A stretch of DNA of 64,000 bases, taken from positions 33,045 through 97,044 of the forward strand of contig JAAYAJ010000023.1 of assembly GCA_012719455.1 (NCBI GenBank), in the 5' to 3' direction. Each line of letters opens with the position of its first letter. The stretch's first letter is position 1. The DNA is from Acidobacteriota bacterium (GTDB lineage Bacteria; Acidobacteriota; UBA6911). Positions 11,689-32,570 of the stretch are shown piece by piece. The translations under genes and the position numbers were made by a program. The notes beneath the pieces were generated by a model, which did no database searches, was not told where the DNA came from, and saw only the letters and a program-made list of their open reading frames with translations.

Positions 11689-11694
11689 CCGGCC

Positions 11695-13096
<1,402 letters not shown>

Positions 13097-13110
<14 letters not shown>

Positions 13111-14606: not shown

Positions 14607-15782
14607 CTATTCACTCGAATAATTGTCGAAATAGCCCTGGATATGGATGATGGGCGTTCCCTTGTCGCCGCTTCCGCTCATCAGGTCGCACAGGGAGCCG
14701 ACGAGGTCGGACAGGCGCCGGGGCGTTGTCCCGATTGAGGCTTCCTTGCCCAGCAGGTCATTCCCCTTCCCGGAGATGATGGCCCGAATTCTCTTTTCCG
14801 CATCTCCCGCCGGCAGGCCCGCAAGCTCGTTGTCGGCGATGTACTTGATCTTGATTTCGTTCAGGGTCCCGTCAAGCCCGGAGGTGAACCCCGGAGCAAC
14901 CACCGGGTCGGCGAGTTCCCAGATCTTCCCAATGGGGTCCTTGAAGGCGCCGTCGCCGTAGACCATCACCTCGACGTGCTTTCCGGTCGCCTCGAAAAGA
15001 CGCCGGTGGATTCCTTCACAAAACGCCTGCGCCTCCCTCGGAAAGAGCTTCAGCCGCGTCGGCCCCGCCTGGTTCGATCCCAGGAGCCCGTATTCCGGAT
15101 TCCACCCGCCCCTTCGGGGCTTGTTCATCAGGTCGTCGAGGCCGACCACCGTCCTGCCGCCCGCGGCCAACAGCCTCGCCTTTATCCGTTTCCGGTCGTG
15201 GATGTGCGCCACCACCACATCCTTTGAATAATCCAGCGCCCGGAGAGGATCGTTGGCCAGCACGATCTCGACATTCCCGTCCACTCCAAGGCTCGTGTAG
15301 AGCTCGATATAATCCAGCCCGGTAAAGGGGTGCTTGAAACTGTGGCCGAAATGCCTCCGGTATTCCTCCTGCGAAATCACATCGGCATGCGGATCGATGC
15401 CGGCGGCCTCCATCCCGTCGACATCCATGAGGTGGTTGCCCACCTCGTCGCACGGGTAGCTCAGCATGACCGTCACATGCCTGCGGCTCATCGCCAGGCC
15501 TTTGAGGATCAACGAAAATCGGTTCCGGCTCAGGATGGGGAAGAGGACGACAAAACCGTCGGTGAAGAGCTCCAGGGCCTGCTCGGCGATTTCGGCCACC
15601 TCCACGTAATTCCCCTGCGAGCGCGCAAGGAGAGACTCGGTGACGCCGACAATGTCGCGGTCCTTGATTTCAAAGCCATGGCTCCGCGCGGCTTCCAGGA
15701 CGCAATCAACGACGATCCGCTCGAGGTCGTCCCCCTGGCAGATGAGCGGGGCCCGGATGGCGCGGGCCTGGGTGCCGATCAT
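14607..15782 (-). CDS. CofE-like (F420-0:gamma-glutamyl ligase family) protein with a large internal insertion
   Basis: Pattern similarity to CofE at the N-terminus (PLICQGDDLERIV...RDIVGVTESLLARSQG), in the middle (GKHVEVMVYGDGA) and at the C-terminus (CDLMSGSGDKGTPIIHIQG). About 390 aa versus about 250 for canonical CofE. An alternative GTG start lies at 15791. Confidence 0.45.
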   Translation of the reverse strand: MIGTQARAIRAPLICQGDDLERIVVDCVLEAARSHGFEIKDRDIVGVTESLLARSQGNYVEVAEIAEQALELFTDGFVVLFPILSRNRFSLILKGLAMSRRHVTVMLSYPCDEVGNHLMDVDGMEAAGIDPHADVISQEEYRRHFGHSFKHPFTGLDYIELYTSLGVDGNVEIVLANDPLRALDYSKDVVVAHIHDRKRIKARLLAAGGRTVVGLDDLMNKPRRGGWNPEYGLLGSNQAGPTRLKLFPREAQAFCEGIHRRLFEATGKHVEVMVYGDGAFKDPIGKIWELADPVVAPGFTSGLDGTLNEIKIKYIADNELAGLPAGDAEKRIRAIISGKGNDLLGKEASIGTTPRRLSDLVGSLCDLMSGSGDKGTPIIHIQGYFDNYSSE

Positions 15783-15950
15783 TCTTCGCACTGACTCCTC
15801 CTTATGTACCGTCCGGCGCCGCGAAAGCGCAGGCCCCTCCAGCCTCCGCCGCCACGGCGGGGCGGCCGGAAGAAGGCATTGTCGCACGAGTCAACGTCCC
15901 CTGCAATGGCACCCCATCGGCGGGATCTTGCACCTCGGGGCGGCGCCGTC

Positions 15951-18398
15951 TCAGATCCGGTTCTCACTCCGGGAGATGAGGTCATCCTGGCAGTCGCGCG
16001 TCAACTCCACGAAATAGGCGGAGTACCCGGCAATGCGCACCACCAGGTTGCGGTGCTCTTCGGGAGCCTCCTGCGCCTTGCGCAGCAGCTCGGTCGACAC
16101 CACGTTGAACTGGGCTTCCGCGCCGCCCTTGTGCATGTACGTCTTCACCATGTCGCGCAGCTTGGCAATCCCGTCATCGCGGCTCAGAGAGGTGGGATGC
16201 AGCCGGATGTTCAGACAGACGCCGTCCATGAATTTGCTGTGGTCGTAGCAGAGCGAGGAGAGAAACACGGCGGTGGGGCCGTTGGTGTCCCGCCCCTGCA
16301 CCGGGGAGGCGGCATCGGCGATGGGGGTCCCGGCCTTTCTGCCGTCGGGCGTCGCCCAGGTGGTATACCCCTGTCCCACGTGGTCCGCCGCCCCGTACAG
16401 GCCGGCCTTGAAGATCCTGGTACGGGCGGAATAGCATTCCTTGCAGCTTTCGTAATAGGCGTTGATCACCCAGGCCATCTGCTCGTCGGCATAGGGGTCG
16501 GCATTCCCGAAATGGGGCACTTCGTGGATGATCCGCTGCCTCAGCTCCTCGTACCCCACCCAGTCGGCCATCACGGCGTCGTACAGCTCCCGCGCCGTGC
16601 ACAGCTTCCGGTCGAACACCATGTACCGGATAGCGGTCAGGGAGTCCGCCACCGTGGCCAGGCCGGTCGCGGTCCCTCCGTAGGAATTGTACTTGGCCCC
16701 TCCCCAGGTGCAATCCTTGCCCGACTCCATGCAGCCGTCGAGCGAAATGGACAGCATCGGGTGCGGCGTGTGGTACTGGACCAGGTACTCGAGATAATTG
16801 TTCAGGCTCACCTGGGCCTTGAGGAAGTAGCGGGCCAGGGTGCGCCAGGCCTCCCGGACCTCTTCGAACGACTTCATGTCGTACAGGTAACCGGTGTGGA
16901 TCGAGCACTGCTCACCGTTGTAGGGATTCTTGCCGTCGTTGATCGCCATGGCCACCAGCTTGCTGTAGTGGATGGAGGCGTGCGGGGGAGCCACCCCGTT
17001 GGCCGAGGCGTAGTCGTTCCCCGAGCCGGTGATCTCCTGGCAGCCGATGATGGCGTAGTCCCGGGCGTCCTCGAGGGTGAAGCCCAGCTCCCTGACGATT
17101 CCGGGGATGATGACTTCGTCGTTCTGGAACAGCGGCAGCCCGCCCACCTTGGTCGAGGTCTCCAGGGCCAGGGCCCACAGCTCGTCCGGGGTGCCCTTGT
17201 GGACCCGCAACGAGATCGTGGGGTCATGGAGGCTCAACCGGGCCAGGCTCTCCAGCACCATGGAGGTGACGGGGTTGCTGGCGTCCGCGCCCGTGGCGGG
17301 GTCCACCCCGCCGATGGTGGTGTGGAGATAGGTGTTGCCGATGCCGATGATCTTGACCAGTTCGCCGGCGCCCCCGCCGTACATGGAGTTGACCTTCATG
17401 AAGAAGCAGTCGACGATCTCCTGTGCCTCTTCAATCCCCAACCGGCCTTCTTCCAGGTCTTTCTTCAGGTAAGGCCAGGTGTACTGGTCGAAGCGCCCGA
17501 AGGAACCCACCCCGGCGATGAAGCTCAGGCGCAGGATGTACTGGTAGGTGATCGCCGCCTGGCACGCCTCGCGGAAGGTGCGGCAGGGGTTTTCCGAGAT
17601 CCATTCCAGGCTGTCCGCCATCGACTCCAGTTCGGCCCGGCGCTTCGAATCGGCGCAGGAAGCGGCCTTTTCCAGGCACTTCTCCGCGTAGCGCCTCAGG
17701 AGGATCGTCGCGGCGTCGCAGGACAGGACGACGCCGTTGTAGAACAGGCTGCGCTGGACATCCTCCCCCATGAGGTTGTTGACGTGGGCGTCCAGCCATT
17801 CCTGGGCCTGCCGGCGGATGGCGCCGTAACCCGTGTCGATGATCTTCCGGAAGCCCGGGGTCAGGTGGCCGCTCGGCATCATCAGCAGGGGTGCGCCCTT
17901 GACCGTGGCGGAGACCTCCAGGCGGCAGAGTTCCTCGTACCCCTCCGGCTGCCAGGCGGCCGCGATATCGTTGTATGTGCGCCCCTTCCAGTATTCGCGG
18001 ATCGACGCCAGGTCTTCATAATCCTCGGGAGCTATCGACATGCGCAGCTCCTCTTCGTCGGGATTGTGGTACAGACCGTCCTCCCTGAGGGTCCAGACGC
18101 CGTTTTCGATCATGGCCGGGAGCCATTCGCCGTTGCCCCAGTCGGGCATGTACCCGGCGCCGCAGAAATTCCGGCTGCTGTTGCCGACGATCATTTCGAA
18201 GTCCTCGACCCTGACCGTCATCTGCTCGCAGATCGCCTTCAGCACCGTGGGGCGGCGCAGGCAGGGGATGAGATTCTCATTCTCCTGGAAGCAACGCGTC
18301 GTGATCATGGCGCTTTCCGAGTCGCTCTGGATAACACGATCCCGGATCAATTGATGCATGAGCTGCATGCGCTCGCTTACGGGCTTGAATTTGTACAT
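15951..18398 (-). CDS. glycyl radical enzyme (PFL-like, PFL2/glycerol-dehydratase-type family), 815 aa
   Basis: C-terminal glycyl radical motif RIAGYSAYFVEL. Candidate catalytic Cys loop IIGCQEITG. The ATG at 18398 has a GGGGAGGACGAC RBS. The ORF track extends further upstream only through non-coding-looking sequence. Confidence 0.85.
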   Translation of the reverse strand: MYKFKPVSERMQLMHQLIRDRVIQSDSESAMITTRCFQENENLIPCLRRPTVLKAICEQMTVRVEDFEMIVGNSSRNFCGAGYMPDWGNGEWLPAMIENGVWTLREDGLYHNPDEEELRMSIAPEDYEDLASIREYWKGRTYNDIAAAWQPEGYEELCRLEVSATVKGAPLLMMPSGHLTPGFRKIIDTGYGAIRRQAQEWLDAHVNNLMGEDVQRSLFYNGVVLSCDAATILLRRYAEKCLEKAASCADSKRRAELESMADSLEWISENPCRTFREACQAAITYQYILRLSFIAGVGSFGRFDQYTWPYLKKDLEEGRLGIEEAQEIVDCFFMKVNSMYGGGAGELVKIIGIGNTYLHTTIGGVDPATGADASNPVTSMVLESLARLSLHDPTISLRVHKGTPDELWALALETSTKVGGLPLFQNDEVIIPGIVRELGFTLEDARDYAIIGCQEITGSGNDYASANGVAPPHASIHYSKLVAMAINDGKNPYNGEQCSIHTGYLYDMKSFEEVREAWRTLARYFLKAQVSLNNYLEYLVQYHTPHPMLSISLDGCMESGKDCTWGGAKYNSYGGTATGLATVADSLTAIRYMVFDRKLCTARELYDAVMADWVGYEELRQRIIHEVPHFGNADPYADEQMAWVINAYYESCKECYSARTRIFKAGLYGAADHVGQGYTTWATPDGRKAGTPIADAASPVQGRDTNGPTAVFLSSLCYDHSKFMDGVCLNIRLHPTSLSRDDGIAKLRDMVKTYMHKGGAEAQFNVVSTELLRKAQEAPEEHRNLVVRIAGYSAYFVELTRDCQDDLISRSENRI

Positions 18399-18794
18399 GT
18401 CGTCCTCCCCTTTATCCCAGCCTTTATTATAGCAGCGGGCGGGGGGAAAAGGCGGCAGGGATATTGCGCCATCGGCCGCCGCGGCGGCGGGTTCCTTCCG
18501 CGGCGCCTTCCGGTTTACCGTCCCCGCTTGCCGCGATCGGCGGATCCTCCTGATGCGGCAAGCATTGCGTGGTGCCGCAGGGGAGGGGTAAAAACGGCTT
18601 TCACCCGTACACCTGCGACCGGGATGAGAGAGTTTCCCCCGCCCATGGCGCACTTTTGGTATCTTTTTGGACCCAAAGGATGGTACACAAAAAAGAACGA
18701 TCGATAACGGGGTGTGATCGATCCACGACAAACCGGGTGAAGCCTCGAAAGCAGCGCAGGGCGACACAGGATTTGCAGAAAAGGAGATCCCGAC

Positions 18795-20804
18795 ATGCTG
18801 ACGAAGAATACGCGTCTGTTGCCGTTGGTCTTTGCATCCATGGCTATGGCCGCCGCGGCCTTTGCGCTCGATTACTCCGGCAGGCAGAAGAACCCGGCTA
18901 CCTTCGAAACCCTCGAAGAGGCCCGCTTAAGCGGGCCCGTCGCCGTCGCAGCCCTCGAGGGGAACGTCGGGGGGACCTTCAAATCCCACCCGGTCCTGGA
19001 CGGTTACCCGGCCGACACCACCTACATCTACCGGTCGCCGAACCTGTACGGCGGACGCGCCGCGGCCCGGATCAACACCAACCTCCTCGTGTTTGCAGAG
19101 AGATCCTTCCCCGGCAAGGACGCGGCCCGGCGCTACCTCGAAGACCTCGGGCTGATCCGCATCATCGACGAGGCGATCGGCAGCGTCATCCTGGTCACCC
19201 CGGCCAACGGGAAGGCCTTCGGCCCCAACGACCAGAAATACTACTATGCCCTCCAGACGGCCATCTTCGCGCAGAAGGCGGGAGAAAGCTCCGGGCCGGC
19301 CTTTGGCGGCGCTCCCGGAGCGGGCGCCAAGCCCGCCTTGGGCGCCCCCGCTGCGCCCGCAGGCAAGCCCGGTCCCGGGACCGTGCCGGGTCCCGGGATG
19401 TTCGGGGCGCGGGGAGCCAGGTATTCCGACGCCGAGTATTTCGGCGGCTTCGGCTATACCTATGTCATCGGGATCGACGGCGGAGCCGCCTACCTGAACA
19501 ACTACGTCGCGGGAACCCTCGACTACGTCAGCAGGATCGCCGGGATGCTGCTGATCAATGGAAGCATGGAAACCGGCCGCGAGGTCGCCGCCCTGGTTCC
19601 CGTATACCTGGTGAACGCACCCGACCGGGTGGTGGAAGCCTACAAGAAAGCCAACGATACGGACGCCTATGAAAAAACCGGGGAGGTGGAGGCGTTCTTC
19701 GACCAGTCCCTGCCGCTGAAGAGAGTGGTTGTGGCCCGGGACCGGAACCCGGACATCGCCCGGCATATCAGGAACGCCTACTACGACTTGTTCATCAAGG
19801 CGATGCGCGTACCGGTGGGGAGAGCGGGCCTCCACAGCGCTTCCACCCCTTACCAGGGTTACAGCATGGATCAGGCGCCGTTATCCCTCTGCGAACGGAA
19901 CGCCGTCATCGGCGGCGCCACCCGGGACGGCATTCGTGTCATCGGCCGCAGCGAGGACAGGTTCAGCCACATCAAGACCCCGGGCGGCGAATACCTGCAG
20001 ACCTGGTTCGAATACCTGCCCGATGAAGTGCTGCAAAAGACCGCCCCGACCGGGACCGTGCCCCTGGTTCTCGCCAACCACGGAGGCGGGGACGACCCCC
20101 GGCAGTTCATCGAGGAAATCGGCCTGCTGCCGCTGGCCGGCCGCGAGCGCTTCGCCATGGTCGCACCGGAGCATCAGAGCATCGGCTCGGTGCTTTCCGA
20201 ATCCCTCCCCGCCCTGGTGGAATACATGCTCGCCACTTATCCCGCACTAGACCCGGCGCGCGTGTACGTCACCGGGTATTCCATGGGCGGAGCTGCGACC
20301 CTGAGGGCCGTCAACGGAAAACCGTCCCTGTTCGCCGCGGCGGTGCCGATGGCGGCGGCCCCCTACACCGGGACCCCGGAACAAGCGGCCCGGCTTCAAA
20401 AGGCCCGCCTGCCGATCATGTTCACCACTTCCTCTTTTGACTTGGGGGGCGCGTTCGATCAGACCCGGGGCGCCATCGCCGGCGGATACCAGGCTCAGCT
20501 CAACCTGTTCCTCGGCTACAACGGGATGGACAAGATAGCGGCGTATGATTTCGAGGCTTACCCGGTGAACGGGTTCAAGGCCGACCGGATGCTGCGGGTG
20601 CGGCTCAACGGCGAATACGACAACTACCTCTGGTACCTCAACGACGGCGCCGGCGTCCCCATGGTCGCGCTCTCCTACACCATGAACCTCCAGCACGCCC
20701 TCTACCCGGAATACGGCAGGATCGCGTGGGAATTCTTCAAGCGCTACTCCCGCGACCCCCGGACCGGGAAAATCCGCTACCACCCGCACGGCGGAGGATT
20801 TTAG
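18795..20804 (+). CDS. secreted alpha/beta-hydrolase esterase (PHB-depolymerase/feruloyl-esterase-like C-terminal domain)
   Basis: Signal peptide MLTKNTRLLPLVFASMAMAAAAFA. Carries a Gly/Pro/Ala-rich linker and a C-terminal domain with the nucleophile elbow GYSMGG. Confidence 0.65.
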   Translation: MLTKNTRLLPLVFASMAMAAAAFALDYSGRQKNPATFETLEEARLSGPVAVAALEGNVGGTFKSHPVLDGYPADTTYIYRSPNLYGGRAAARINTNLLVFAERSFPGKDAARRYLEDLGLIRIIDEAIGSVILVTPANGKAFGPNDQKYYYALQTAIFAQKAGESSGPAFGGAPGAGAKPALGAPAAPAGKPGPGTVPGPGMFGARGARYSDAEYFGGFGYTYVIGIDGGAAYLNNYVAGTLDYVSRIAGMLLINGSMETGREVAALVPVYLVNAPDRVVEAYKKANDTDAYEKTGEVEAFFDQSLPLKRVVVARDRNPDIARHIRNAYYDLFIKAMRVPVGRAGLHSASTPYQGYSMDQAPLSLCERNAVIGGATRDGIRVIGRSEDRFSHIKTPGGEYLQTWFEYLPDEVLQKTAPTGTVPLVLANHGGGDDPRQFIEEIGLLPLAGRERFAMVAPEHQSIGSVLSESLPALVEYMLATYPALDPARVYVTGYSMGGAATLRAVNGKPSLFAAAVPMAAAPYTGTPEQAARLQKARLPIMFTTSSFDLGGAFDQTRGAIAGGYQAQLNLFLGYNGMDKIAAYDFEAYPVNGFKADRMLRVRLNGEYDNYLWYLNDGAGVPMVALSYTMNLQHALYPEYGRIAWEFFKRYSRDPRTGKIRYHPHGGGF

Positions 20805-20836
20805 CAGGAGGCCCGGCGAGGCGCGGGGCCGGCGAG

Positions 20837-21376
20837 TCAGTAGCGCGACGCTATCCAGCCGCTGTTGCAAAGGGTGAAACATTCGCCGCACGATCGGCAG
20901 GAAAGCTCCGCTCCTTCCACCAGCGCCGGCCGGCGTTCGACGCCGCGGCCCTTGAAGTAGATCCTGTTCTCTTTCTTGATCTCCGCGCAGTAGCGGAGGC
21001 AGCGCCCGCACTGGCTGCAGTCCGCAATGCCCGTTTGAAAGCGCGAGGAGGTGACCCCGTATTCCTCGGCGTACGTCTGCCAGGAAGGCCAGAGGAGTTC
21101 AATGACCATCTTGCGGATCTTGACCACCGTCTCCGTCTTCGTCCACACCCGGAGACCTTCTTCGATGGGATAGACGCAGGACGCCACGACCCTCTTGCGC
21201 CCCCCGGCGGTTTCGATCTCCACCATGCACATCCGGCAGGCGCCGAACGGCTCCAGCCGGTCGTCATCGCACAGGGTGGGTATTTCAATGCCGGCAGACC
21301 TGGCGGCCTGCAAAACGGTGGTTCCCGGCGCGCCCTCTACGGCACGACCGTCGATTTCCAATCGGATAGTATCCAC
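20837..21376 (-). CDS. NuoG-N-terminal-like / HoxU-like [2Fe-2S] + [4Fe-4S] iron-sulfur protein (GTG start)
   Basis: The 2Fe-2S ferredoxin-type segment (LCDDDRLEPFGACRMCMVE) is followed by 4Fe-4S Cys clusters (CSQCGRCLRYC; CRSCGECFTLC). It has no catalytic/molybdopterin domain. The GTG start has a GGGAGG RBS 11 nt after the NuoF-like stop. Confidence 0.6.
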   Translation of the reverse strand: MDTIRLEIDGRAVEGAPGTTVLQAARSAGIEIPTLCDDDRLEPFGACRMCMVEIETAGGRKRVVASCVYPIEEGLRVWTKTETVVKIRKMVIELLWPSWQTYAEEYGVTSSRFQTGIADCSQCGRCLRYCAEIKKENRIYFKGRGVERRPALVEGAELSCRSCGECFTLCNSGWIASRY

Positions 21377-21387
21377 GACGCCTCCCG

Positions 21388-23304
21388 CTACCTTGAAGTT
21401 CCGGCCAGGCCAATCTCTTCGGCGGATTTCCGCAGGACCGCACCCGCCGGAACCTTGACGACAGCACCGAATTTTGCAGGGCATGCCTTTAAGCAGGCGC
21501 CGCACTTGATGCACTTCTCATGGACGATGGTGAAAACACCCGCCTCCGACTTGTCGATGGCGTCCACCGGGCAGTTGCGCTGGCAGGCGCCGCAGGCCTG
21601 GCATTTCTCCTGGTCGATCTCGTAGGCGATGAGCGCCGTGCAAATGCCGGCGCGGCATCGTCCATGCCGGATGTGCTCCTCGTATTCCTCCCGGAAATAC
21701 TTCAGGGTGCTGGCCACCGGATTGGGCGCCGACTGGCCCAGCGCACAGAGAGATGCGACCTGCATGAATTCGGCCAGCTCCTCGAGGATTTCGAGATCCC
21801 CCTCCCGACCTTTCCCCGCGGCGATGTTGTCGAGGATGGCTAGCATCTGGCGAATCCCTTCGCGGCAGGGAACGCACTTGCCGCAGGACTCGTGTGCGAG
21901 GAAGCTGGTGTAGTACCGCGCGGTATCCACCATGCAGGTGTTTTCGTCCATGACGATCATGCCGCCCGACCCCATCATGGAACCCGCCTTGGTGAGTTCG
22001 TCAAAATCGACCGGAAGATCGAGGAGGGCCGCAGGAATGACACCGCCGGAAGGTCCACCGGTCTGCACGGCCTTGAACGATTTCCCGTCGGGAACCCCTC
22101 CGCCGATCTTGAAAATGATGTCGCGGAGCGGGATTCCCATCGAAACTTCCACCAGCCCCGTGTTTTTGACCTTGCCTACCAGGGAAAAGATCTTGGTGCC
22201 CTTGCTCCCTTCCGTCCCCATCCCACGGAACCAGTCGGCGCCCTTGTCGATGATATGGGGAACGGTGGCCCAAGTCTCGACGTTGTTCAGGCAGGAGGGT
22301 TTGCCCCAGAGCCCTTTCTCCGATGTGTGCACGTATTTGGGGCGCGGTTCACCGACACGCCCTTCGATGGCGCTCATCAGGGCGCTGGATTCCCCGGAAA
22401 CGAAGGCCCCGGCCCCGCGATGAATGACGACGTCGAAGGAGAATCCGGATCCGAGGATGTTCCTGCCGAGCAGCCCGTATTCGCGCGCCTGCTCAATGGC
22501 GATCTCGATGCTCTTGCGCGCCAGGGGATACTCCTGGCGCACGTAGATGAACCCTTCCGCGGCTCCAATCGCATAGGCGCCCAGGATCAGCCCTTCCAGG
22601 ACGCTGTGCGGGTTTCCCTGGAGCAGGCTGCCGTCCATGAAGGCGCCCGGATCCCCCTCATCAGCGTTGACAATGACATATTTCGGTTCGCCGGGAGCGT
22701 TGCGCGTGGTTTCCCACTTCCGGCCGGCGGGAAATCCGCCGCCGCCGCGGCCGCGCAGGTTGGCCTTTTTCACTTCGTGGAGCACCGATTCGGGCGTCAT
22801 TTCGGAAAGAGCCTTCGCCAGCGCGCCGTATCCGCCGACGGCGATGTAGTCCAGGATGCTGGAGGAGTCGATCCTGACGTTGTCCCCGAGCAGGACGCGC
22901 TCCTGGTGCCTGTAGAAGGGGATGTCCTGCAAGCGCTCGATGCGCTCGCCGGTTCCTTCATCGAGGTACAGGAGGTCGCGGACCGGACCTTCACCCGCGC
23001 CGAGCCCGTCGATGATGGGCGCCGCGTGCTTCGGCTGCACTTTGGTATAGCAGGTGTCGGAGGGGTGGATCACCACCAACGGGGCGCCTTCGCAGAAACC
23101 GTGGCACCCGGTCCGGCGGACGCCGACTTTGTGCCCGAGACCGCGCTTTTCGATCTCGCCATCCAATGCGTCCGCCACCGCCTCGGCGCCGCAGGCAAGA
23201 CAACCCGATCCCGTACACACCTCCAGCCAGTCCTTGGCGTTGCGCTGGGCGACGGCCTCCGCTCTCAATTTTTCAAGATCCGCGACGGTCTTCAAGCGTT
23301 TCAT
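21388..23304 (-). CDS. NuoF/HoxF-like NAD(H)-binding FMN flavoprotein subunit with N-terminal thioredoxin-like 2Fe-2S and C-terminal 2x[4Fe-4S] domains
   Basis: 638 aa. The FMN/NADH site carries the GRGGGGFPAGRKWE and ESCGKCVPCREG motifs. The C-terminal CxxCxxCxxxCP is present twice. Confidence 0.85.
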   Translation of the reverse strand: MKRLKTVADLEKLRAEAVAQRNAKDWLEVCTGSGCLACGAEAVADALDGEIEKRGLGHKVGVRRTGCHGFCEGAPLVVIHPSDTCYTKVQPKHAAPIIDGLGAGEGPVRDLLYLDEGTGERIERLQDIPFYRHQERVLLGDNVRIDSSSILDYIAVGGYGALAKALSEMTPESVLHEVKKANLRGRGGGGFPAGRKWETTRNAPGEPKYVIVNADEGDPGAFMDGSLLQGNPHSVLEGLILGAYAIGAAEGFIYVRQEYPLARKSIEIAIEQAREYGLLGRNILGSGFSFDVVIHRGAGAFVSGESSALMSAIEGRVGEPRPKYVHTSEKGLWGKPSCLNNVETWATVPHIIDKGADWFRGMGTEGSKGTKIFSLVGKVKNTGLVEVSMGIPLRDIIFKIGGGVPDGKSFKAVQTGGPSGGVIPAALLDLPVDFDELTKAGSMMGSGGMIVMDENTCMVDTARYYTSFLAHESCGKCVPCREGIRQMLAILDNIAAGKGREGDLEILEELAEFMQVASLCALGQSAPNPVASTLKYFREEYEEHIRHGRCRAGICTALIAYEIDQEKCQACGACQRNCPVDAIDKSEAGVFTIVHEKCIKCGACLKACPAKFGAVVKVPAGAVLRKSAEEIGLAGTSR

Positions 23305-24380
23305 GCCTGCGCCTCCTCCCTCTGCATTGTTTTGATGATTTTGTCAAGCCGGCTCCGGTCGGGATCCCGATAGTAGTCGCTGTCGATCTGGATCACCGGC
23401 GCCAGGGCGCAGCATCCCAGGCAATGAACGGTCTCCAGGGTGTAGGTGAGGCGGCTGTCCGTCTGTCCCGGTTGCAGACCCAGGGCGGCGGAGACCCTGC
23501 TCAGCAGTTCGGAGCTCCCCCGCACGTGGCAGGCCGTCCCGGTGCAGACCTGGAAAGAATGACGCCCCCGTGGTTCCAGGCTGAACGCCTCGTAGAAGTG
23601 CACGATTCCGTAGATCTCGCGCAGCGGAACGTCGAGTCTGCCGGATATCCATTCGAGGATGTGGCGCGGAAGCCAGTGAAACTTCTCCTGGACGTCCAGG
23701 AGCGTCTGGATGAGCGCATTCTTCCGGAAGCCGTAGCTGCGCATGATGGCGTCGGCTTGCAGGAGATCCTCGCGGATTTCGGCAATGGCGCGTCCCTTGT
23801 CCCAGGTCCGACCCAGGCTCTGCGCGTGGCGTTTCGCCTCTGTCTCGAGGCCGGCCAGCTCCTCGAGCAGCGTACGCTTTCCCATGCCCAGGGAGTAGGC
23901 TTCCTCGAGGAGTGCAAGCGCCTGAAGCAACAGGTCCTGTTTCATCCTGGGCGCGTGGGCCCGCCTGCGCAACCTGCCGAGCTCCACCCCGCGCCGCACC
24001 GACTCCAGGAGCCTTTCGGGATTGACCGGCTTGGCCAAATAATCGTGGGCTCCCAGCCGCATCGATTCCACCGCGGAATCCACCGTCCCCTTCCCGGTCA
24101 TGACGACCGGTACCGTGGCGGATGCGGCCTCGGCCAGGCGGCCGAGCGCCTCGAATCCGGCCACACCCGCAATCTCGGGATCCAGGAGTACGACGCTCGG
24201 ATTGTCCGCTTCCGCCATCCGGAGGCCCTGCTCCCCATCCCCCGCGACGGCGACGCGATAACCGTCCTCCTCCAGGATCCGGCGACAAGCCTCCGCGGAG
24301 GCGGCATCGTCATCGATAATGAGCACATCCAGCGGGGGCGATGCCTCCGGACCAATGACTGTCATCCTACGGGAATTCAT
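23301..24380 (-). CDS. response-regulator receiver domain fused to NuoE/HoxE-like [2Fe-2S] thioredoxin-like subunit
   Basis: N-terminal REC domain: DVLIIDDD, the phospho-acceptor in VVLLDPEI, VVMTG, and LAKP. C-terminal NuoE motif CTGTACHVRG...HCLGCCALAP. Overlaps the NuoF-like gene by 4 nt. Confidence 0.7.
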   Translation of the reverse strand: MNSRRMTVIGPEASPPLDVLIIDDDAASAEACRRILEEDGYRVAVAGDGEQGLRMAEADNPSVVLLDPEIAGVAGFEALGRLAEAASATVPVVMTGKGTVDSAVESMRLGAHDYLAKPVNPERLLESVRRGVELGRLRRRAHAPRMKQDLLLQALALLEEAYSLGMGKRTLLEELAGLETEAKRHAQSLGRTWDKGRAIAEIREDLLQADAIMRSYGFRKNALIQTLLDVQEKFHWLPRHILEWISGRLDVPLREIYGIVHFYEAFSLEPRGRHSFQVCTGTACHVRGSSELLSRVSAALGLQPGQTDSRLTYTLETVHCLGCCALAPVIQIDSDYYRDPDRSRLDKIIKTMQREEAQA

Positions 24381-25167
24381 AGACAACCTCTGTAATTGGC
24401 TACGTTTATGATAATGCTGCGTACCCCCGCCCGCCGACGCCCCGTCCCCGTCGGAGCTTTCCGGGCCTTGGCCCAAGGCCTCAGCCAAGTTTCCTGGGGG
24501 CCGAAATGGCATCGCTTGCGGGATTTCAACTGCCGTCATCCGGAAGGCTCGGCCTGTGCTTCTCGCGTTCTTGTGCAGTATTTACAAATGCTGTTTGCGG
24601 CAGGTCCGGTGTTTATCCTCGCCTTCCGGCATCCGCCGATCTCATTCCCGGGCGGTTCCTGTTACACTCGACGATTTGCGCCGCTTCCAGGCATGTTGCC
24701 AACCACCGGTGATTGCCAATCATGTTGAGCAAACCAGCCTTGCAGCGTTTCGGCGACAACTTCCTCCCTTTCAGAACCGTCATTGTATCGTCGCCCGCCC
24801 GAAAAACCAAGCAAGACAATGAGGCAGTCGCCGGGGGGATCGATGATGCAGCATGGCCGCCCCTTCCTCGAACCTGGAGAACGTCCGATCCAGGGGGGGG
24901 CAGCCCCGGCACGACCAGGGCGGGAATCACTCCCAGACCGGTCACCTCCTGGGACACCCACTCGAAGCCGAAGGGAGCGTCCGATTTAGCCCCATCCGTT
25001 TACTCCATCCTTTCCGCTTTCTCCGCCCGCTCAATCCGCATATAATGGCCTCAGGGTTTCTCCAGTTTCCAAGGCGTTAGAGGAAGAACTTTCCGAATCG
25101 GCGCCCGCGGCCCATTGCGCGGCAACGGACCGGTTTCCACGCGGATCCTTTACAACGGGAGGGAGAC

Positions 25168-29281: not shown

Positions 29282-30505
29282 CTATCCCGCCGCCCCGGGC
29301 GGGACACTTCCCGTTGTGTACACCTTCACCGCCTTCAGTTCCCCGGAGGGGCAGACTGACTCACAGGCGCCGCAGCCGTTGCATTTTGCAGGATCGACGG
29401 CTGGAAAGGATTCATAGGCTTCTTCATCCCAATGGATCTTGATGGCCTCATAGGGACAGGCGTTTACGCAAGCCTGGCACTCGCTGATGCCCCATAGACA
29501 CAGGAATATGTCCACGCTGGCCGTTCCGATGACATAGCTGTTTTTCTGCTCCAGGTTCAGCCGCTGCAGGGCTCCGCTGGGGCAAACGGTCGTACAGGCA
29601 TGGCAGTCATTTCTGCAGTAATCATTTTCGAACCGGACAACGGGCGACAGGAATCCGAGGACCCCGGATTGTCCCGCATCGGGATGAATGATCCCGGATG
29701 GACAGGCGCGCATGCAATTGCCGCAGCGCATACAAAGGCCCGTAAACTCATGCTCTTCAATCGCGCCCGGCGGCCGCAACGGGGCGTGGTCGGATCTTGC
29801 CGCGCCGATCTTTCGTGCCGCCAGGCTCAACCCCAGGCCGGCTGCAACCGCAACAAACATTCTCCTGCCTGCCCAAACGGCCTTTCCGCGCGCGGTTCTT
29901 CCGCCCGGTTCGACTTGGCCCGACTTTCGAAAATTCCTGCAGAAGGACCCGGCCTTTCCCAGCAGGTCCTGGGTGGCGCCCAGGGGGCAGATCCGGGCGC
30001 ACCAGAGATCCCCCGAAGTGATCTGCAACAGGATGAGCAGGACGATGCCGTACAGGGAAGCCAGGACCGCCAGGACCCCCGTCGCTCGATATACCGAAAA
30101 CGCGTTGTTCAGGAACGCCAACGGGTCCATCCACAAAAAGAGCGGATAACCCAGGATGGCGCCGGCGGCCGTCAGCAAAACGATATATTCGCCTATGGGA
30201 GGGGAACGCTTCCACCAGGTTCCGGCCGGCGATCGGACGCCGGAAACGGCATCCAACAGCAGGCCGACCGGGCAGACATAGCGGCAGAACCACCTTTTCC
30301 GCAACAGCGCGATTGCCGCAAAAGCCAGGCCGAGGATGGATCCCACCCAGATCGTTCCACCCGCCAGGATTGTACCTATCACAACGAAGGAGCTGGCTTG
30401 TACAAATACCCTGGAGCTGTCGATCCAGAAGGGGAAGGGGGACAACATGAGAATCGCGAGCAGAAAACAACCCAGCCTCACGTAGATGCGTCCTTCACTT
30501 GTCAT
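29282..30505 (-). CDS. NapH/MauN-type membrane-bound polyferredoxin (integral membrane 4Fe-4S protein)
   Basis: Multiple TM helices with CRYVCPVG and CARICPLG motifs. C-terminal ferredoxin clusters CMRCGNCMRACP, CHACTTVCP, CQACVNACP and CNGCGACESVCP. Confidence 0.7.
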   Translation of the reverse strand: MTSEGRIYVRLGCFLLAILMLSPFPFWIDSSRVFVQASSFVVIGTILAGGTIWVGSILGLAFAAIALLRKRWFCRYVCPVGLLLDAVSGVRSPAGTWWKRSPPIGEYIVLLTAAGAILGYPLFLWMDPLAFLNNAFSVYRATGVLAVLASLYGIVLLILLQITSGDLWCARICPLGATQDLLGKAGSFCRNFRKSGQVEPGGRTARGKAVWAGRRMFVAVAAGLGLSLAARKIGAARSDHAPLRPPGAIEEHEFTGLCMRCGNCMRACPSGIIHPDAGQSGVLGFLSPVVRFENDYCRNDCHACTTVCPSGALQRLNLEQKNSYVIGTASVDIFLCLWGISECQACVNACPYEAIKIHWDEEAYESFPAVDPAKCNGCGACESVCPSGELKAVKVYTTGSVPPGAAG

Positions 30506-30634
30506 TCGGGCGCACCTCCTCTCCGGCACCTGAGCCCATGTACCCCCCCTAACCGCTCATGGCGGCATAGTTCCTTCCCGTCCCCATCGTGCGCAAACGC
30601 GTTCTCGAAAAACGACGCCATCAAAGAACGATCG

Positions 30635-32113
30635 CTAAGGCAGTATGACACCCTGCTTTTTGAGGCTGGATTGCAGGGCCCCGATATCGATCTTCCTGAG
30701 ATCCACACGGCTTTTGACCGACTGGGCCGCCGCGGTGCCGGCTGCCTGCCCGAGGCAGATGCAATGGTGGATCAGGTTGAAGGCGTCATTGGTGACGGCA
30801 TCCGATGAAAACGCCCGGCAGGCGACAAGCATGTTGTTGACATTGCGCGGGATCAGGCAACGATAGGGCATGTACATCAAGGGATTTTTTTCGTCCATGC
30901 CTGGAAAGATGGCGATGGTGTCCTTGAAAGGGGTTTTGTTTTTCATATCCTTTTCAGTGACAACATACTCCCCGACAACCCGTCGGCCGCCGCGCGTGCC
31001 GAGCTGCGAATTGGACAGAACGATGAAGCTCTTTTCGAAACCGGGAACATTCTTCTTGTAAAAATCGTGGGTGATCATCATCTCCTTGCGGCCCAGAAAC
31101 TCCACCCGTGTCAACTCCTCGACGTCGTACTGGCTTTTGTTCGCGTACCGGGGAAAGCACCAGACCACGTTCTCCTGGTTTTTCAGGTTGCTGGTCAGGA
31201 ATCCCGCCGTCCCCCCCAGCTTTCTGACCTCGCGCATCTTTTCGGCCAGTGCCTTGGCGTTGGCTTTCTTGTACTGCTCATATTTTTTCAGATCGACGTT
31301 GTCGATCCAGTAGGAGAACGAAAGGTTGGAACTCCTCAGGGCTTTATCGATATGGGTCTCGAAGCGTGCCCCCGTATAGGGGAGCAGGTCCCCATCGCCG
31401 GTGGAATCGATGACGATCTTCGCCAACACCGCCTGCCGGCCCGATTTGCTTTCAAAGATGACACCCTTGGCCTGGTTTCCCTCCATGATCGGCTCTGTTC
31501 CCCACGAATGGAGGTAGGTCTTGACCCCCGCTTCCGTCATCATGTCCTGAAACAGGCACTTGGACACCTCGGCATCGATGTGGGCCGAGTATCCCACACT
31601 GTTGCTGGTGGCGTAAAAGGGGGACCGGTTCCGGTAATATTCGACCAGTTTTTTGTCCCTGGACCCCCAATGCTCCTTCTTCGGGTAATCGGCCGCCTCC
31701 CTGGCATCCAGCCTCTTGATCCACTCCTGGGTGATGCCGGCGATCTGCTGCTTGCCGTTAATATCGGTCATGGCGGGGATGATGGTGACCAATCCGCCCG
31801 TGCTCATGCCGCCGAGGTGCTCGTATCTTTCAATGAGAACCGTGTCGGCTCCGCTCCTTGCCGCAGCCAGGGCCGCGCCGATCCCCCCCGGCCCGCCGCC
31901 TACGACCACGACATCGGCCGTTCGGCACACCTTGGTCTGACGGGCGGCTTCCCTGATCGTCCCCGCGGACGCCTTTGCCGACTTGGCGGATTGGGCCGAC
32001 ACCGGAATCGCCATACCTCCGGCGCTCAAAGCAACCGCCGTGGTCCCCTTGATTGCCGTGTTCTTGAAAAACTCCCTGCGAGTAATCCCATCACTAGTAT
32101 TGGAAAGTGCCAT
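30635..32113 (-). CDS. Tat-exported FAD-dependent oxidoreductase (PF12831-like)
   Basis: Twin-arginine signal ITRREFFKNTAIKGTTAVAL. FAD-binding Rossmann motif VVVVGGGPGGIGAALAAARSGADTVLIE. Confidence 0.7.
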   Translation of the reverse strand: MALSNTSDGITRREFFKNTAIKGTTAVALSAGGMAIPVSAQSAKSAKASAGTIREAARQTKVCRTADVVVVGGGPGGIGAALAAARSGADTVLIERYEHLGGMSTGGLVTIIPAMTDINGKQQIAGITQEWIKRLDAREAADYPKKEHWGSRDKKLVEYYRNRSPFYATSNSVGYSAHIDAEVSKCLFQDMMTEAGVKTYLHSWGTEPIMEGNQAKGVIFESKSGRQAVLAKIVIDSTGDGDLLPYTGARFETHIDKALRSSNLSFSYWIDNVDLKKYEQYKKANAKALAEKMREVRKLGGTAGFLTSNLKNQENVVWCFPRYANKSQYDVEELTRVEFLGRKEMMITHDFYKKNVPGFEKSFIVLSNSQLGTRGGRRVVGEYVVTEKDMKNKTPFKDTIAIFPGMDEKNPLMYMPYRCLIPRNVNNMLVACRAFSSDAVTNDAFNLIHHCICLGQAAGTAAAQSVKSRVDLRKIDIGALQSSLKKQGVILP

Positions 32114-32570
32114 GGCTCCCTCGTTTCTGAAAGGTTTAGGATGTAACGCCAACCTAGCCAACTATTCACCGATTTGTCAAGGTTTTCGTCACACAAAGGA
32201 ATCCGCAGGGCCGCCTGGCCCGCCGGGCCCACGGGGGAGCTCGGAGTCCTGCCGCCGACCCCCGGGGCATCTTCCCGAAGGGCGGGGACATCCCTGAGCC
32301 TTCATGCTTTGATCCCGACACGGAAACATCGTTTGGGCATTTCCATCCCGCGGCGCAAGCATGAAGGAAAACCATGCAACGAATGCTTTAGAATACCCCA
32401 TATCCATGCTAGGTTGGCCTTGTACAAATTCCGTTTTCCAAAACCTCTTTTCCGGAAGGGGAAACAGGGCGAATCGAGTCACCCGACGGCCGAGACCTGG
32501 TGGCCGGGCCCACCGCGCCGTGGACCTGCCGACAGGCGGAACTATCCAAGCTAGAAAAGGGAACCTCCCC

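What the first reader, a model, noticed from the sequence alone, without database searches (positions are those of the whole stretch)
20837..24380. HoxEFU-like diaphorase module whose NuoE-like subunit carries a receiver (REC) domain, with no catalytic partner gene
Three co-oriented genes encode a NuoE-like 2Fe-2S subunit, a NuoF-like FMN/NAD(H) flavoprotein and a short NuoG-N-terminal/HoxU-like Fe-S protein. The NuoE-like protein has a full N-terminal REC domain, with the acid pocket DDD, a phospho-acceptor Asp and conserved Thr and Lys. This implies that phosphorylation by an unknown histidine kinase gates an NAD(H)-linked electron-transfer module. Downstream there is no hydrogenase, formate dehydrogenase or other catalytic subunit: the operon ends 32 bp before a convergent esterase gene. 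The physiological electron acceptor or donor of the module is therefore unknown.
Basis: partly seen in the sequence, partly recalled or inferred. Interest (0 to 1): 0.6.

Follow-up and report, generated by a model that had tools for sequence, protein, structure and literature searches.

The report
Receiver-gated orphan NADH–ferredoxin redox module
Three genes encode the flavin and iron-sulfur core of an electron-bifurcating-type NADH/ferredoxin enzyme whose small subunit carries a two-component receiver domain and which has no catalytic partner gene; the same cassette recurs in many Acidobacteria and other bacteria, usually beside a sensor kinase, so a redox enzyme of unknown substrate is probably switched directly by phosphorylation.

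Summary
On the minus strand, 24380→20837, three coupled genes encode a REC + NuoE-type [2Fe-2S] protein (359 aa), a 638-aa NuoF-type flavoprotein and a 179-aa [2Fe-2S] + 2×[4Fe-4S] protein. The operon ends 32 bp before a convergent esterase gene. "HoxEFU-like" is imprecise. The flavoprotein has the extra N- and C-terminal clusters of the bifurcating BfuB/HydB class. All three proteins match solved BfuABC enzymes best, and the HoxE and HoxU models score far below their cut-offs. The third protein is a minimal BfuA that stops just after its last cluster.

The receiver is canonical (DDD, Asp67, Thr95, Tyr114, Lys117). Asp67 is kept in 110 of 121 orthologues. The cassette is conserved in 18 other loci from several phyla with no recurrent catalytic neighbour. 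The only recurrent neighbours are an NtrC-type σ54 activator (11 loci) and a sensor kinase (10 loci, three with an [FeFe]-hydrogenase-like domain). The enzyme's receiver resembles the neighbouring activator's receiver more than it resembles orthologous receivers of another lineage, which suggests one shared kinase. This window has no such kinase gene nearby.

Most likely it is a phospho-gated, stand-alone NAD(H)/ferredoxin core with an unknown diffusible or distant partner. I found no literature on it.

The parts
23301..24380 (-). REC-BfuC (REC + NuoE/HydC-type [2Fe-2S] subunit), 359 aa
   Evidence: Pfam Response_reg 4.6e-25 and 2Fe-2S_thioredx 3.3e-44. A 100%-identical 359-aa protein exists in the database. 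AF2 mean pLDDT is 79. The C-terminal half matches HydC/NfnC/WorC and the N-terminal half matches CheY-like receivers.
23997..24326 (-). Receiver (REC) domain, residues 19-128
   Evidence: Predicted (beta-alpha)5 fold. Foldseek target TM-score is 0.88-0.91 to receivers 3crn, 6ifh and 4d6y. D23/D24/D25, D67, T95, Y114 and K117 are all present.
24180..24182 (-). Codon of the predicted phospho-acceptor Asp67
   Evidence: Window 24168-24194(-) translates to VVLLDPEIA. The aligned column is Asp in 110 of 121 family members.
23754..23996 (-). Family-specific helical linker between REC and the NuoE-like domain, residues 129-209
   Evidence: Conserved in the 359-385 aa lineage and absent from the 285-305 aa fusions. 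AF2 predicts helices with low confidence at 143-170. No Pfam match.
23325..23753 (-). NuoE/BfuC-like domain with the C1 [2Fe-2S] site (C279, C284, C320, C324)
   Evidence: Pfam PF01257 covers positions 2-144 of 145. The four Cys are invariant in 121 sequences. Best PDB matches are 7p5h_C, 7t2r_C, 8a6t_C and 9mqx_C.
21388..23304 (-). BfuB/HydB-type flavoprotein, 638 aa: N-terminal [2Fe-2S], FMN/NAD(H) site, [4Fe-4S], C-terminal 2x[4Fe-4S]
   Evidence: Pfam domains. The nine best PDB hits are all B subunits of bifurcating BfuABC enzymes; 7t2r_B scores 733 bits and aligns residues 28-618, including both CxxCxxCxxxCP motifs.
20837..21376 (-). Minimal BfuA, 179 aa: [2Fe-2S] plus two [4Fe-4S], no catalytic domain, ends 9 residues after the last Cys
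   Evidence: Pfam Fer2_4 and Fer4_7, with no PF10588 hit. The only full-length PDB match is 9mqx_A, WorA. Eleven of the 12 Cys are invariant in 18 orthologues and the twelfth is Cys in 17 of 18.
24381..24760 (-). Conserved non-coding 5' region of the operon, with a perfect palindrome GGCCTTGG-G-CCAAGGCC at 24464-24480
   Evidence: Alignment with L003, L005 and L014 shows long near-identical blocks with indels. The palindrome is unique in the window and was never seen in shuffles. No Rfam match.
20805..20836 (.). 32-bp gap to the convergent alpha/beta-hydrolase gene (18795..20804, + strand); end of the operon

Best explanation
The three genes encode a complete but 'headless' BfuABC-type core, of the same class as HydABC, NfnABC and WorABC. 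It consists of a [2Fe-2S] BfuC subunit with a canonical N-terminal receiver, an FMN/NAD(H) BfuB subunit with all the extra clusters of the bifurcating class, and a minimal BfuA. The minimal BfuA is only a short iron-sulfur wire ([2Fe-2S] plus two [4Fe-4S]) with nothing catalytic attached.

Shown here: the domain and ligand content, the operon structure, the conservation of exactly this cassette across phyla without a catalytic neighbour, and its frequent pairing with a sensor kinase and an NtrC-type activator.

Inferred:
(1) The complex moves electrons between NAD(H), ferredoxin and a third partner. That partner is diffusible or encoded far away, and it docks at the exposed distal cluster of the minimal BfuA.
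(2) Asp67 of the receiver is phosphorylated by a sensor kinase. In relatives this is the kinase that also serves the neighbouring NtrC-type regulator. In this genome the kinase is unlinked and unidentified.
(3) Phosphorylation switches the enzyme. The likely route is a change in receiver dimerisation or in the freedom of BfuC, whose [2Fe-2S] domain must swing between the flavin and the ferredoxin-side clusters in solved Bfu enzymes.

The result would be transcriptional and instant post-translational control of a redox valve from one signal.
For: Identity of the core:
- Pfam domains.
- The nine best PDB hits of the flavoprotein are all bifurcating Bfu B subunits.
- BfuC-type matches by sequence and by fold.
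- The minimal BfuA aligns end to end only with WorA.
- All cluster ligands are conserved.
- The Bfu criteria are taken from PMC9304861 and PMC12318220.

Stand-alone nature:
- In 18 other loci the only recurrent neighbours are an NtrC-type activator (11 loci) and a kinase (10 loci), with no catalytic gene.

Receiver function:
- The receiver residues are complete here, and the Asp is kept in 110 of 121 orthologues.
- The receiver on BfuC is 42-53% identical to the receiver of the adjacent activator, against 33% to BfuC receivers of the other lineage.
- In the alpha1 segment the same-locus identity is 44-76%.
- In three loci BfuA carries a further receiver with the same alpha1 helix.

Generality: receiver-BfuC fusions also occur in complexes that do have a catalytic part. 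L015 has a formate-dehydrogenase-type BfuA, and L089 has Hdr-like genes downstream.
Against: - No kinase or receiver-containing activator was found in the annotated genes of this window.
- The window's own clade (L001, L003, L005, L086, L087) also lacks them next to the cassette.
- 11 of 121 orthologues have lost the Asp. Three of these are among the 14 closest relatives.
- The window's loop after Asp67 reads DPEIAG instead of the usual DLKMPG. Phospho-control may therefore be relaxing in this clade.
- Bifurcation is inferred from cluster content only.
- The third partner is unknown.
- There is no expression, phosphotransfer or activity evidence.
Confidence: 0.55

Rival explanations
1. It is the HoxEFU diaphorase of a bidirectional [NiFe] hydrogenase whose HoxYH genes lie elsewhere.
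For: HoxE and HoxU are among the top NCBIfam names, and the three-gene order E-F-U is the same.
Against: Both scores are far below the curated cut-offs: 131 against 224 for HoxE, and 101 against 333 for HoxU. The flavoprotein has the additional N- and C-terminal clusters that non-bifurcating homologues lack. The third protein lacks PF10588. No hoxYH-like gene lies next to any of 19 cassettes.
Confidence: 0.05
2. It is a Bfu core that docks permanently to a dedicated catalytic module encoded elsewhere in the genome, such as an Hdr-like, tungsten oxidoreductase, formate dehydrogenase or hydrogenase module. This would resemble Type 2 Bfu enzymes, but with split loci.
For: In L089 the cassette is followed by HdrA-like, FlpD and HdrCB-like genes. 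In L015 the BfuA is a full formate-dehydrogenase subunit. Type 2 Bfu enzymes use a small BfuA to plug into separate catalytic subunits.
Against: 16 of 18 related loci from several phyla have no such neighbour. The minimal BfuA lacks the C-terminal zinc finger and adaptor helix that WorA uses to recruit WorS; the alignment stops at WorA residue 183 of 247.
Confidence: 0.25
3. In this clade the receiver is no longer phosphorylated. It serves as a structural or dimerisation domain (a pseudo-receiver in function), and the enzyme is regulated only at transcription.
For: No kinase or activator lies next to the cassette in the window's clade. Three of the 14 closest orthologues have lost the Asp, and the window has an atypical DPEIAG loop. 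In L085 and L011, where the kinase gene is missing, the neighbouring activator's receiver has lost its Asp, to His and Asn respectively.
Against: The window itself keeps every catalytic receiver residue. Across the family the Asp, Thr/Ser and Lys are kept in 91-99% of sequences. L085 and L011 keep the Asp in the BfuC receiver even though the activator lost it.
Confidence: 0.2
4. The complex is mainly a signalling device. It reads the NADH/ferredoxin redox state and, through its receiver, competes for or drains phosphate from the kinase, tuning the NtrC-type regulator. It is not a metabolic enzyme.
For: There is no catalytic module in nearly all loci, and the cassette is tightly linked with a kinase and an activator. 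The alpha1 helix is shared between the receivers.
Against: Every cofactor ligand of a full electron-transfer chain is conserved, including the ferredoxin-side clusters. That is costly for a mere sensor. The receiver is N-terminal, the usual input position. In the window's clade no kinase or activator is adjacent.
Confidence: 0.1

Closest known systems
BfuABC family of electron-bifurcating enzymes (HydABC, NiFe-HydABCSL, NfnABC/StnABC, WorABCSL; PMC9304861, PMC12318220)
   Same: All three subunits match these best. The B subunit scores 733 bits to 7t2r_B and 715 to 9mqx_B, with the N-terminal [2Fe-2S], FMN site, [4Fe-4S] and C-terminal 2x[4Fe-4S]. The C subunit has the C1 [2Fe-2S] site. The A subunit has the A1, A2 and A4 clusters like WorA.
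   Different: No catalytic domain or catalytic subunit is attached or adjacent. BfuA is shorter than any solved one: 179 aa against 247 for WorA, without the zinc finger and adaptor helix. BfuC carries a receiver domain plus an 80-residue linker. The family description does not mention any receiver.
HoxEFU diaphorase of cyanobacterial-type bidirectional [NiFe] hydrogenases
   Same: Homologous subunits in the same gene order. HoxEFU can act as a ferredoxin:NAD(P)H oxidoreductase sub-complex (abstract of PMC11647496).
   Different: The scores are below the HoxE and HoxU cut-offs. The flavoprotein has extra clusters, the U-like protein lacks PF10588, there is no HoxYH, and a receiver is present.
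Orphan or Type 4 Bfu clusters with unknown third substrate, and the predicted rubrerythrin-linked Rub-Bfu (PMC9304861, clade 57)
   Same: A Bfu core whose third substrate cannot be read from its neighbours. In two acidobacterial loci (L085, L011) a rubrerythrin gene lies two genes upstream.
   Different: Type 4 clusters lack BfuA, whereas a minimal BfuA is present here. Rubrerythrin is not adjacent in the window or in most loci.
Putative sensory [FeFe] hydrogenases (group C) linked to kinases
   Same: In L090, L092 and L093 the kinase upstream of the cassette carries Fer4 + Fe_hyd_lg_C + FeS + HisKA + HATPase_c domains. The cluster-binding Cys are kept, but the proton-relay Cys is replaced, giving SSNCP.
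   Different: This applies to relatives only. The window and other Acidobacteriota have no such kinase nearby, or have a Cache/HAMP kinase instead.
Response regulators with enzymatic output domains (e.g. CheB, PleD, RpfG; from general knowledge)
   Same: An N-terminal receiver fused to a non-DNA-binding effector. The canonical residues are present.
   Different: The output is a subunit of a multi-subunit flavin/iron-sulfur oxidoreductase. I found no description of such an output in the paper library.

Membership tests
BfuABC (bifurcating HydABC-type) core | BfuB with an FMN/NAD(H) site and the proximal [4Fe-4S] (B1) | tested here: met
   Complex1_51K 1.3e-41 and NADH_4Fe-4S 3.5e-34. The GRGGGGFP and SCGKCVPCREG motifs align with 7t2r_B.
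BfuABC (bifurcating HydABC-type) core | BfuB C-terminal 2x[4Fe-4S] domain (B3/B4) and N-terminal [2Fe-2S] (B5), which are absent from non-bifurcating homologues | tested here: met
   Two Fer4 motifs at residues 561-611 and 2Fe-2S_thioredx at 23-100. The Cys align with 7t2r_B. The criterion comes from PMC9304861.
BfuABC (bifurcating HydABC-type) core | B2 site (Zn or cluster) in BfuB | not tested
   A CxxxxC pair aligns with 7t2r_B, but the ligand set was not checked.
BfuABC (bifurcating HydABC-type) core | BfuC with the C1 [2Fe-2S] cluster | tested here: met
   C279, C284, C320 and C324 are invariant in 121 sequences. PF01257 scores 3.3e-44.
BfuABC (bifurcating HydABC-type) core | BfuA N-terminal cluster chain (A1 [2Fe-2S], A2 and A4 [4Fe-4S]) | tested here: met
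   Of the 12 Cys, 11 are invariant and one is Cys in 17 of 18 orthologues. The protein aligns with WorA residues 3-183. The His-ligated cluster domain is absent, as in WorA.
BfuABC (bifurcating HydABC-type) core | A catalytic domain or subunit for a third substrate | tested here: not met
   None is present in the operon, in the annotated genes of the 64-kb window, or in 16 of 18 related loci.
BfuABC (bifurcating HydABC-type) core | Coupled NAD(H)/ferredoxin/third-substrate bifurcation activity | not testable with these tools
   This needs enzyme assays.
HoxEFU diaphorase | HoxE and HoxU equivalog scores above the NCBIfam cut-offs | tested here: not met
   HoxE scores 131.3 against 224, and HoxU 101.1 against 333.
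HoxEFU diaphorase | Genetic association with HoxYH | tested here: not met
   No hydrogenase subunit was found in the annotated window genes or next to 18 related cassettes. The rest of the genome could not be seen.
Two-component receiver (REC) domain | CheY-like (beta-alpha)5 fold | tested here: met
   PF00072 scores 4.6e-25. The AF2 secondary structure fits. Foldseek target TM-score is 0.88-0.91 to receivers.
Two-component receiver (REC) domain | Acid pocket, phospho-acceptor Asp, Thr/Ser, Lys and aromatic switch residue | tested here: met
   D23/D24/D25, D67, T95, K117 and Y114 are present. In the family, Asp is kept in 110 of 121, Thr/Ser in 112 of 121 and Lys in 120 of 121.
Two-component receiver (REC) domain | A cognate histidine kinase | tested here: inconclusive
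   None was found in the annotated window genes. A kinase lies two genes upstream in 10 of 18 related loci, and the receiver's alpha1 helix covaries with that of the adjacent activator.
Two-component receiver (REC) domain | Phosphorylation of the Asp | not testable with these tools
   This needs phosphotransfer assays.

The most novel reading that the evidence does not exclude
One sensor kinase, either Cache-type or carrying an [FeFe]-hydrogenase-like H-cluster domain, phosphorylates in parallel an NtrC-type sigma-54 activator and receiver domains built into the BfuC subunit (in some lineages also the BfuA subunit) of an electron-bifurcating-type flavoenzyme core. One signal would then both induce and instantly gate a stand-alone NADH/ferredoxin valve that has no dedicated catalytic subunit. 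This would be the first two-component control acting directly on a flavin-based bifurcating core. In the hydrogenase-like lineage, the kinase's own Fer4/H-cluster half might even be the missing partner that docks on the minimal BfuA.
Probability: 0.3. Interest if true: 0.8.

Novelty: new variant of a known kind. Interest (0 to 1): 0.62.

Why it matters
Flavin-based electron bifurcation sets the NADH/ferredoxin balance of anaerobic metabolism, yet almost nothing is known about how these enzymes are switched at the protein level. A receiver domain built into the core would give a concrete, testable switch: Asp67, BeF3- and acetyl phosphate. The fusion is conserved in hundreds of sequences from Acidobacteriota, a dominant soil phylum, and from other phyla. 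The adjacent kinases in relatives point to the signals involved.

The cassette also defines a large class of Bfu cores with a minimal BfuA and no third-substrate module. Finding its partner would extend the known reaction range of the family, or would show that a regulated, non-energy-conserving NADH:ferredoxin short-circuit exists.

Tried and rejected
- Catalytic partner beyond the operon boundary. Pfam on 39 proteins of the window (three of them the cassette's own) found a glycyl-radical enzyme, hydrolases, a TAT-exported FAD oxidoreductase with a membrane polyferredoxin, an RND pump and others. It found no hydrogenase, formate dehydrogenase, Hdr or kinase.
- Sigma-54 promoter upstream of the operon. 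Good -24/-12 matches exist in L085, L013 and L001. The window has only TGGCTG-N5-TTGG, which is not conserved in its close relatives. Rejected for this window.
- Rex-type NADH-sensing operator. TTGTAAATACTGCACAA in the leader has the wrong spacing and is poorly palindromic in relatives (by eye). Rejected.
- Known RNA element in the long leader. There is no Rfam match at E ≤ 1.
- Downstream methyltransferase, short-chain dehydrogenase, UGSC and 424-aa genes, which recur in some acidobacterial loci, as possible partners. The methyltransferase and UGSC proteins have signal-peptide-like N-termini. The set is absent from the window's operon (the methyltransferase homologue is at 48693-49445) and from other lineages. 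This is treated as local synteny.
- Upstream 254-aa and 180/181-aa genes. These are not conserved next to the cassette.
- The metagenome scan with the family alignment returned mostly plain NuoE genes, with only L095, L096 and L168 full length, so it added little.
- Literature. Six searches and targeted reads of the Bfu papers found no mention of a receiver fused to NuoE, HydC, HoxE or BfuC. The library is incomplete, so this is absence of evidence only.

Full report
**What is there**

The window is GC-rich (about 64%). Its best matches are Acidobacteriota MAGs, some assigned to Bryobacterales. The finding's three genes lie on the minus strand.

- Gene 1 runs 24380→23301. The longest ORF starts at 24539, but a 100%-identical database protein is 359 aa and all orthologues are 354-372 aa. 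A conserved AGAGG precedes the ATG at 24380, and the sequence upstream shows indels between close relatives.
- Gene 2 runs 23304→21388 and overlaps gene 1 by 4 nt.
- Gene 3 starts at a GTG at 21376, five nt after GGGAGG, and ends at 20837. It is 179 aa, like its orthologues.
- A convergent alpha/beta-hydrolase gene ends at 20804, exactly 32 bp away.

**Domains**

- Protein 1 has Response_reg (4.6e-25) and the NuoE-type thioredoxin-like [2Fe-2S] domain (3.3e-44).
- Protein 2 has the NuoF FMN domain, SLBB and the NuoF [4Fe-4S] domain. It also has an N-terminal thioredoxin-like [2Fe-2S] domain and a C-terminal pair of ferredoxin-type [4Fe-4S] motifs.
- Protein 3 has an N-terminal NuoG-type [2Fe-2S] domain and a two-cluster ferredoxin domain. 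It does not have the His-ligated cluster domain PF10588.

An AlphaFold model of protein 1 (mean pLDDT 79) gives three parts: a (βα)5 receiver at residues 19-141, a poorly defined helical linker, and a confident NuoE-like half. Foldseek matches the C-terminal half to HydC, NfnC and WorC (target TM about 0.71). It matches the N-terminal half to CheY-like receivers (target TM 0.88-0.91). No solved chain covers both halves.

**Which family**

The NCBIfam HoxE and HoxU models score 131 and 101 bits, against cut-offs of 224 and 333.

The nine best solved relatives of the flavoprotein are all B subunits of electron-bifurcating BfuABC enzymes: NiFe-HydABCSL, WorABCSL, three HydABC, two NfnABC and StnABC. 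The alignment to 7t2r_B runs from residue 28 to 618. It includes the four N-terminal Cys and both C-terminal CxxCxxCxxxCP motifs. Schut et al. (PMC9304861) state that exactly these extra clusters are missing from non-bifurcating homologues such as the Ralstonia hydrogenase, Nqo and FdsB.

Protein 3 aligns end to end only with WorA (9mqx_A). WorA is the small BfuA of the tungsten aldehyde oxidoreductase, which has the A1, A2 and A4 clusters but not A3. The window's protein stops where WorA's zinc finger and adaptor helix begin. Of its 12 Cys, 11 are invariant in 18 orthologues and the twelfth is Cys in 17 of 18. The four [2Fe-2S] Cys of protein 1 are invariant in 121 sequences.

The module therefore meets every tested structural criterion of a Bfu core except one. 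It has no catalytic domain or subunit for a third substrate.

**The receiver**

D23-D24-D25, D67, T95, Y114 and K117 are all present. Conservation among 121 family members:

| Residue | Conserved |
|---|---|
| Acceptor Asp | 110 of 121 |
| Thr/Ser | 112 of 121 |
| Lys | 120 of 121 |
| Cys32 in helix α1 (unexpected) | 116 of 121 |

Losses of the Asp are scattered, but three of them fall among the 14 closest relatives. The window's loop after the Asp reads DPEIAG, where the family consensus is DLKMPG. The receiver looks functional, but constraint may be relaxing in this clade.

**How widespread, and with what**

At least 120 proteins with 59-100% identity have the same two-domain architecture, and more than 600 were significant in the first search. 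An exhaustive search and a second word-indexed search show further REC-NuoE fusions of 285-385 aa in other lineages.

I compared 18 other loci carrying the cassette. The three genes are always together and in the same order. After removing shadow ORFs, the only gene families that recur next to them are:

- an NtrC-type REC-σ54-HTH activator directly upstream (11 loci);
- upstream of that activator, a sensor kinase (10 loci):
  - Cache/HAMP type in six loci, including four acidobacterial ones (three of them assigned to Bryobacterales);
  - a plain HisKA kinase in one locus;
  - in three loci, a kinase whose sensor half is Fer4 + [FeFe]-hydrogenase H-cluster domain + FeS. This kinase keeps the cluster Cys but has Asn in place of the proton-relay Cys.

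In those last three loci the minimal BfuA carries a receiver of its own.

No catalytic gene recurs. There are two exceptions. L089 has HdrA-like, FlpD and HdrCB-like genes downstream. L015, from a Thermodesulfovibrio MAG, has a REC-NuoE and a BfuB followed by a full 813-aa formate-dehydrogenase-type BfuA. Receiver-BfuC fusions are therefore not restricted to headless cores.

The window and its nearest relatives (L001, L003, L005, L086, L087) have neither kinase nor activator next to the cassette. The only σ54 activator found in the window is a PAS-type one without a receiver, about 8 kb away.

**Evidence for a shared kinase**

Within a locus, the BfuC receiver is 42-53% identical to the receiver of the adjacent activator. 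BfuC receivers of the Cache and hydrogenase-like lineages are only 31-38% identical to each other.

In the α1 segment the same-locus identity averages 44% in the Cache lineage and 76% in the hydrogenase-like lineage. From general knowledge, α1 carries much of kinase-regulator specificity. Between lineages this identity is 20-34%.

Either the receivers co-evolve with one kinase, or they arose by local duplication. Both readings point to the same kinase serving both proteins.

In L085 and L011 the kinase gene is absent. There the activator's receiver has lost its Asp (to His and Asn), while the BfuC receiver keeps it.

**Mechanism proposed**

The following points are shown:
- a complete cofactor chain for NAD(H), FMN, clusters and the ferredoxin-side clusters, plus a short cluster wire ending at the surface of a 179-aa protein;
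- a canonical receiver on the subunit whose [2Fe-2S] domain is mobile in solved Bfu enzymes.

The following points are inferred:
- The complex couples NAD(H) and ferredoxin to a third partner that is diffusible or encoded elsewhere.
- Alternatively it may act as a plain ferredoxin:NAD+ valve. Being dissipative, such a valve would need tight control.
- Phosphorylation of Asp67 switches it, probably through receiver dimerisation or by restraining or releasing BfuC.

I give this composite 0.55. The identity of the core is close to certain. Phospho-gating is about even odds for this particular clade. The partner is unknown.

The rivals are: a split-locus Type 2 Bfu with a dedicated catalytic module elsewhere (0.25), a receiver that has become structural (0.2), a redox-sensing signalling device (0.1), and a true HoxEFU (0.05).

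**Novelty**

Databases label these proteins automatically as "NADH-quinone oxidoreductase subunit E" or "response regulator". In the paper library I found no description of a receiver fused to NuoE, HydC, HoxE or BfuC. I also found no description of this cassette with its kinase and activator.

The Bfu family paper contains neither "receiver" nor "response regulator". It notes only that some Bfu cores have an unknown third substrate. The library is incomplete, so prior description elsewhere cannot be excluded.

I rate it a new variant of a known kind: a Bfu core with a built-in two-component switch and a minimal BfuA.

**Limits**

- Only the 64-kb window and ±10 kb around relatives could be seen, so genome-wide co-occurrence could not be computed.
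- The taxonomy of several metagenomic loci is unknown.
- Every functional statement beyond domain and ligand content is inference.

Noticed in passing
window 24381-24760 (palindrome at 24464-24480): The roughly 380 nt upstream of the operon are conserved at DNA level in close relatives (L003, L005, L014), with indels that rule out coding. They contain a perfect palindrome GGCCTTGG-G-CCAAGGCC about 85 nt before the start codon. There is no Rfam match. This could be a leader RNA hairpin or a regulator binding site.
   Followed up: partly
window 24285-24287 (Cys32 of the receiver): A Cys in helix alpha1 of the receiver is conserved in 116 of 121 orthologues. It is also present at the same position in the receivers of most adjacent NtrC-type activators of the Cache-kinase lineage (motif GCxQTLE). 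It may be a specificity or redox-sensitive residue.
   Followed up: partly
L090 4160-8503, L092 4514-8845, L093 4458-8846: A recurrent trio lies upstream of the cassette. It consists of a short gene with only the sigma-54 DNA-binding domain, a histidine kinase whose sensor is Fer4 + [FeFe]-hydrogenase H-cluster domain + FeS (SSNCP instead of TSCCP), and an NtrC-type activator. In these loci the minimal BfuA also carries a receiver.
   Followed up: partly
L085 6289-7638 and L011 4335-5711: In loci that keep the NtrC-type activator but lack the kinase gene, the activator's receiver has lost its phospho-acceptor Asp (to His and Asn) and part of the acid pocket. The BfuC receiver next to it keeps them. 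A rubrerythrin gene lies just upstream in both loci.
   Followed up: partly
L015 1055-6772: A Thermodesulfovibrio MAG has a 287-aa REC-NuoE and a BfuB-type flavoprotein followed by a full 813-aa formate-dehydrogenase-type BfuA. A separate receiver protein lies upstream. Receiver-BfuC fusions therefore also occur in Bfu enzymes with a known catalytic part.
   Followed up: partly
L085, L013 and L001, about 60-110 nt upstream of the REC-NuoE start: Good sigma-54 -24/-12 promoter matches (TGGCGC-N5-TTGC, TGGCTG-N5-TTGC, AGGCAT-N5-TTGC) precede the cassette in some orthologous loci. They are absent from the window's clade.
   Followed up: partly
window 35401-39801 (+): A single 1466-aa ORF fuses a complete AcrB-type RND transporter (ACR_tran, residues 5-1013) to an outer-membrane efflux protein (OEP/TolC-type, two repeats extending to residue 1460). 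It follows an HlyD-type adaptor gene and a divergent TetR gene. This is an unusual inner-membrane pump and outer-membrane channel fusion.
   Followed up: partly
window 15951-18767 (-) and 14607-15887 (-): A 938-aa glycyl-radical enzyme (PFL-like + Gly_radical) has no radical-SAM activase next to it. The downstream gene matches F420-0:gamma-glutamyl ligase, with the profile stretched over 375 residues. A PFL-like gene lies in the same relative position in L003 and L004.
   Followed up: no
window 29282-32161 (-): A FAD-dependent oxidoreductase with a twin-arginine signal (PF12831, 2.1e-80) is followed by a 415-aa membrane polyferredoxin (Fer4_5 + several Fer4). This looks like an exported redox pair of unknown substrate.
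   Followed up: no
window 10573-13110 (+): A CbiA/MinD-type ATPase with an inserted ferredoxin domain is followed by a PAS-sigma54-HTH activator that has no receiver domain. This is the only sigma-54 activator found in the window.
   Followed up: no
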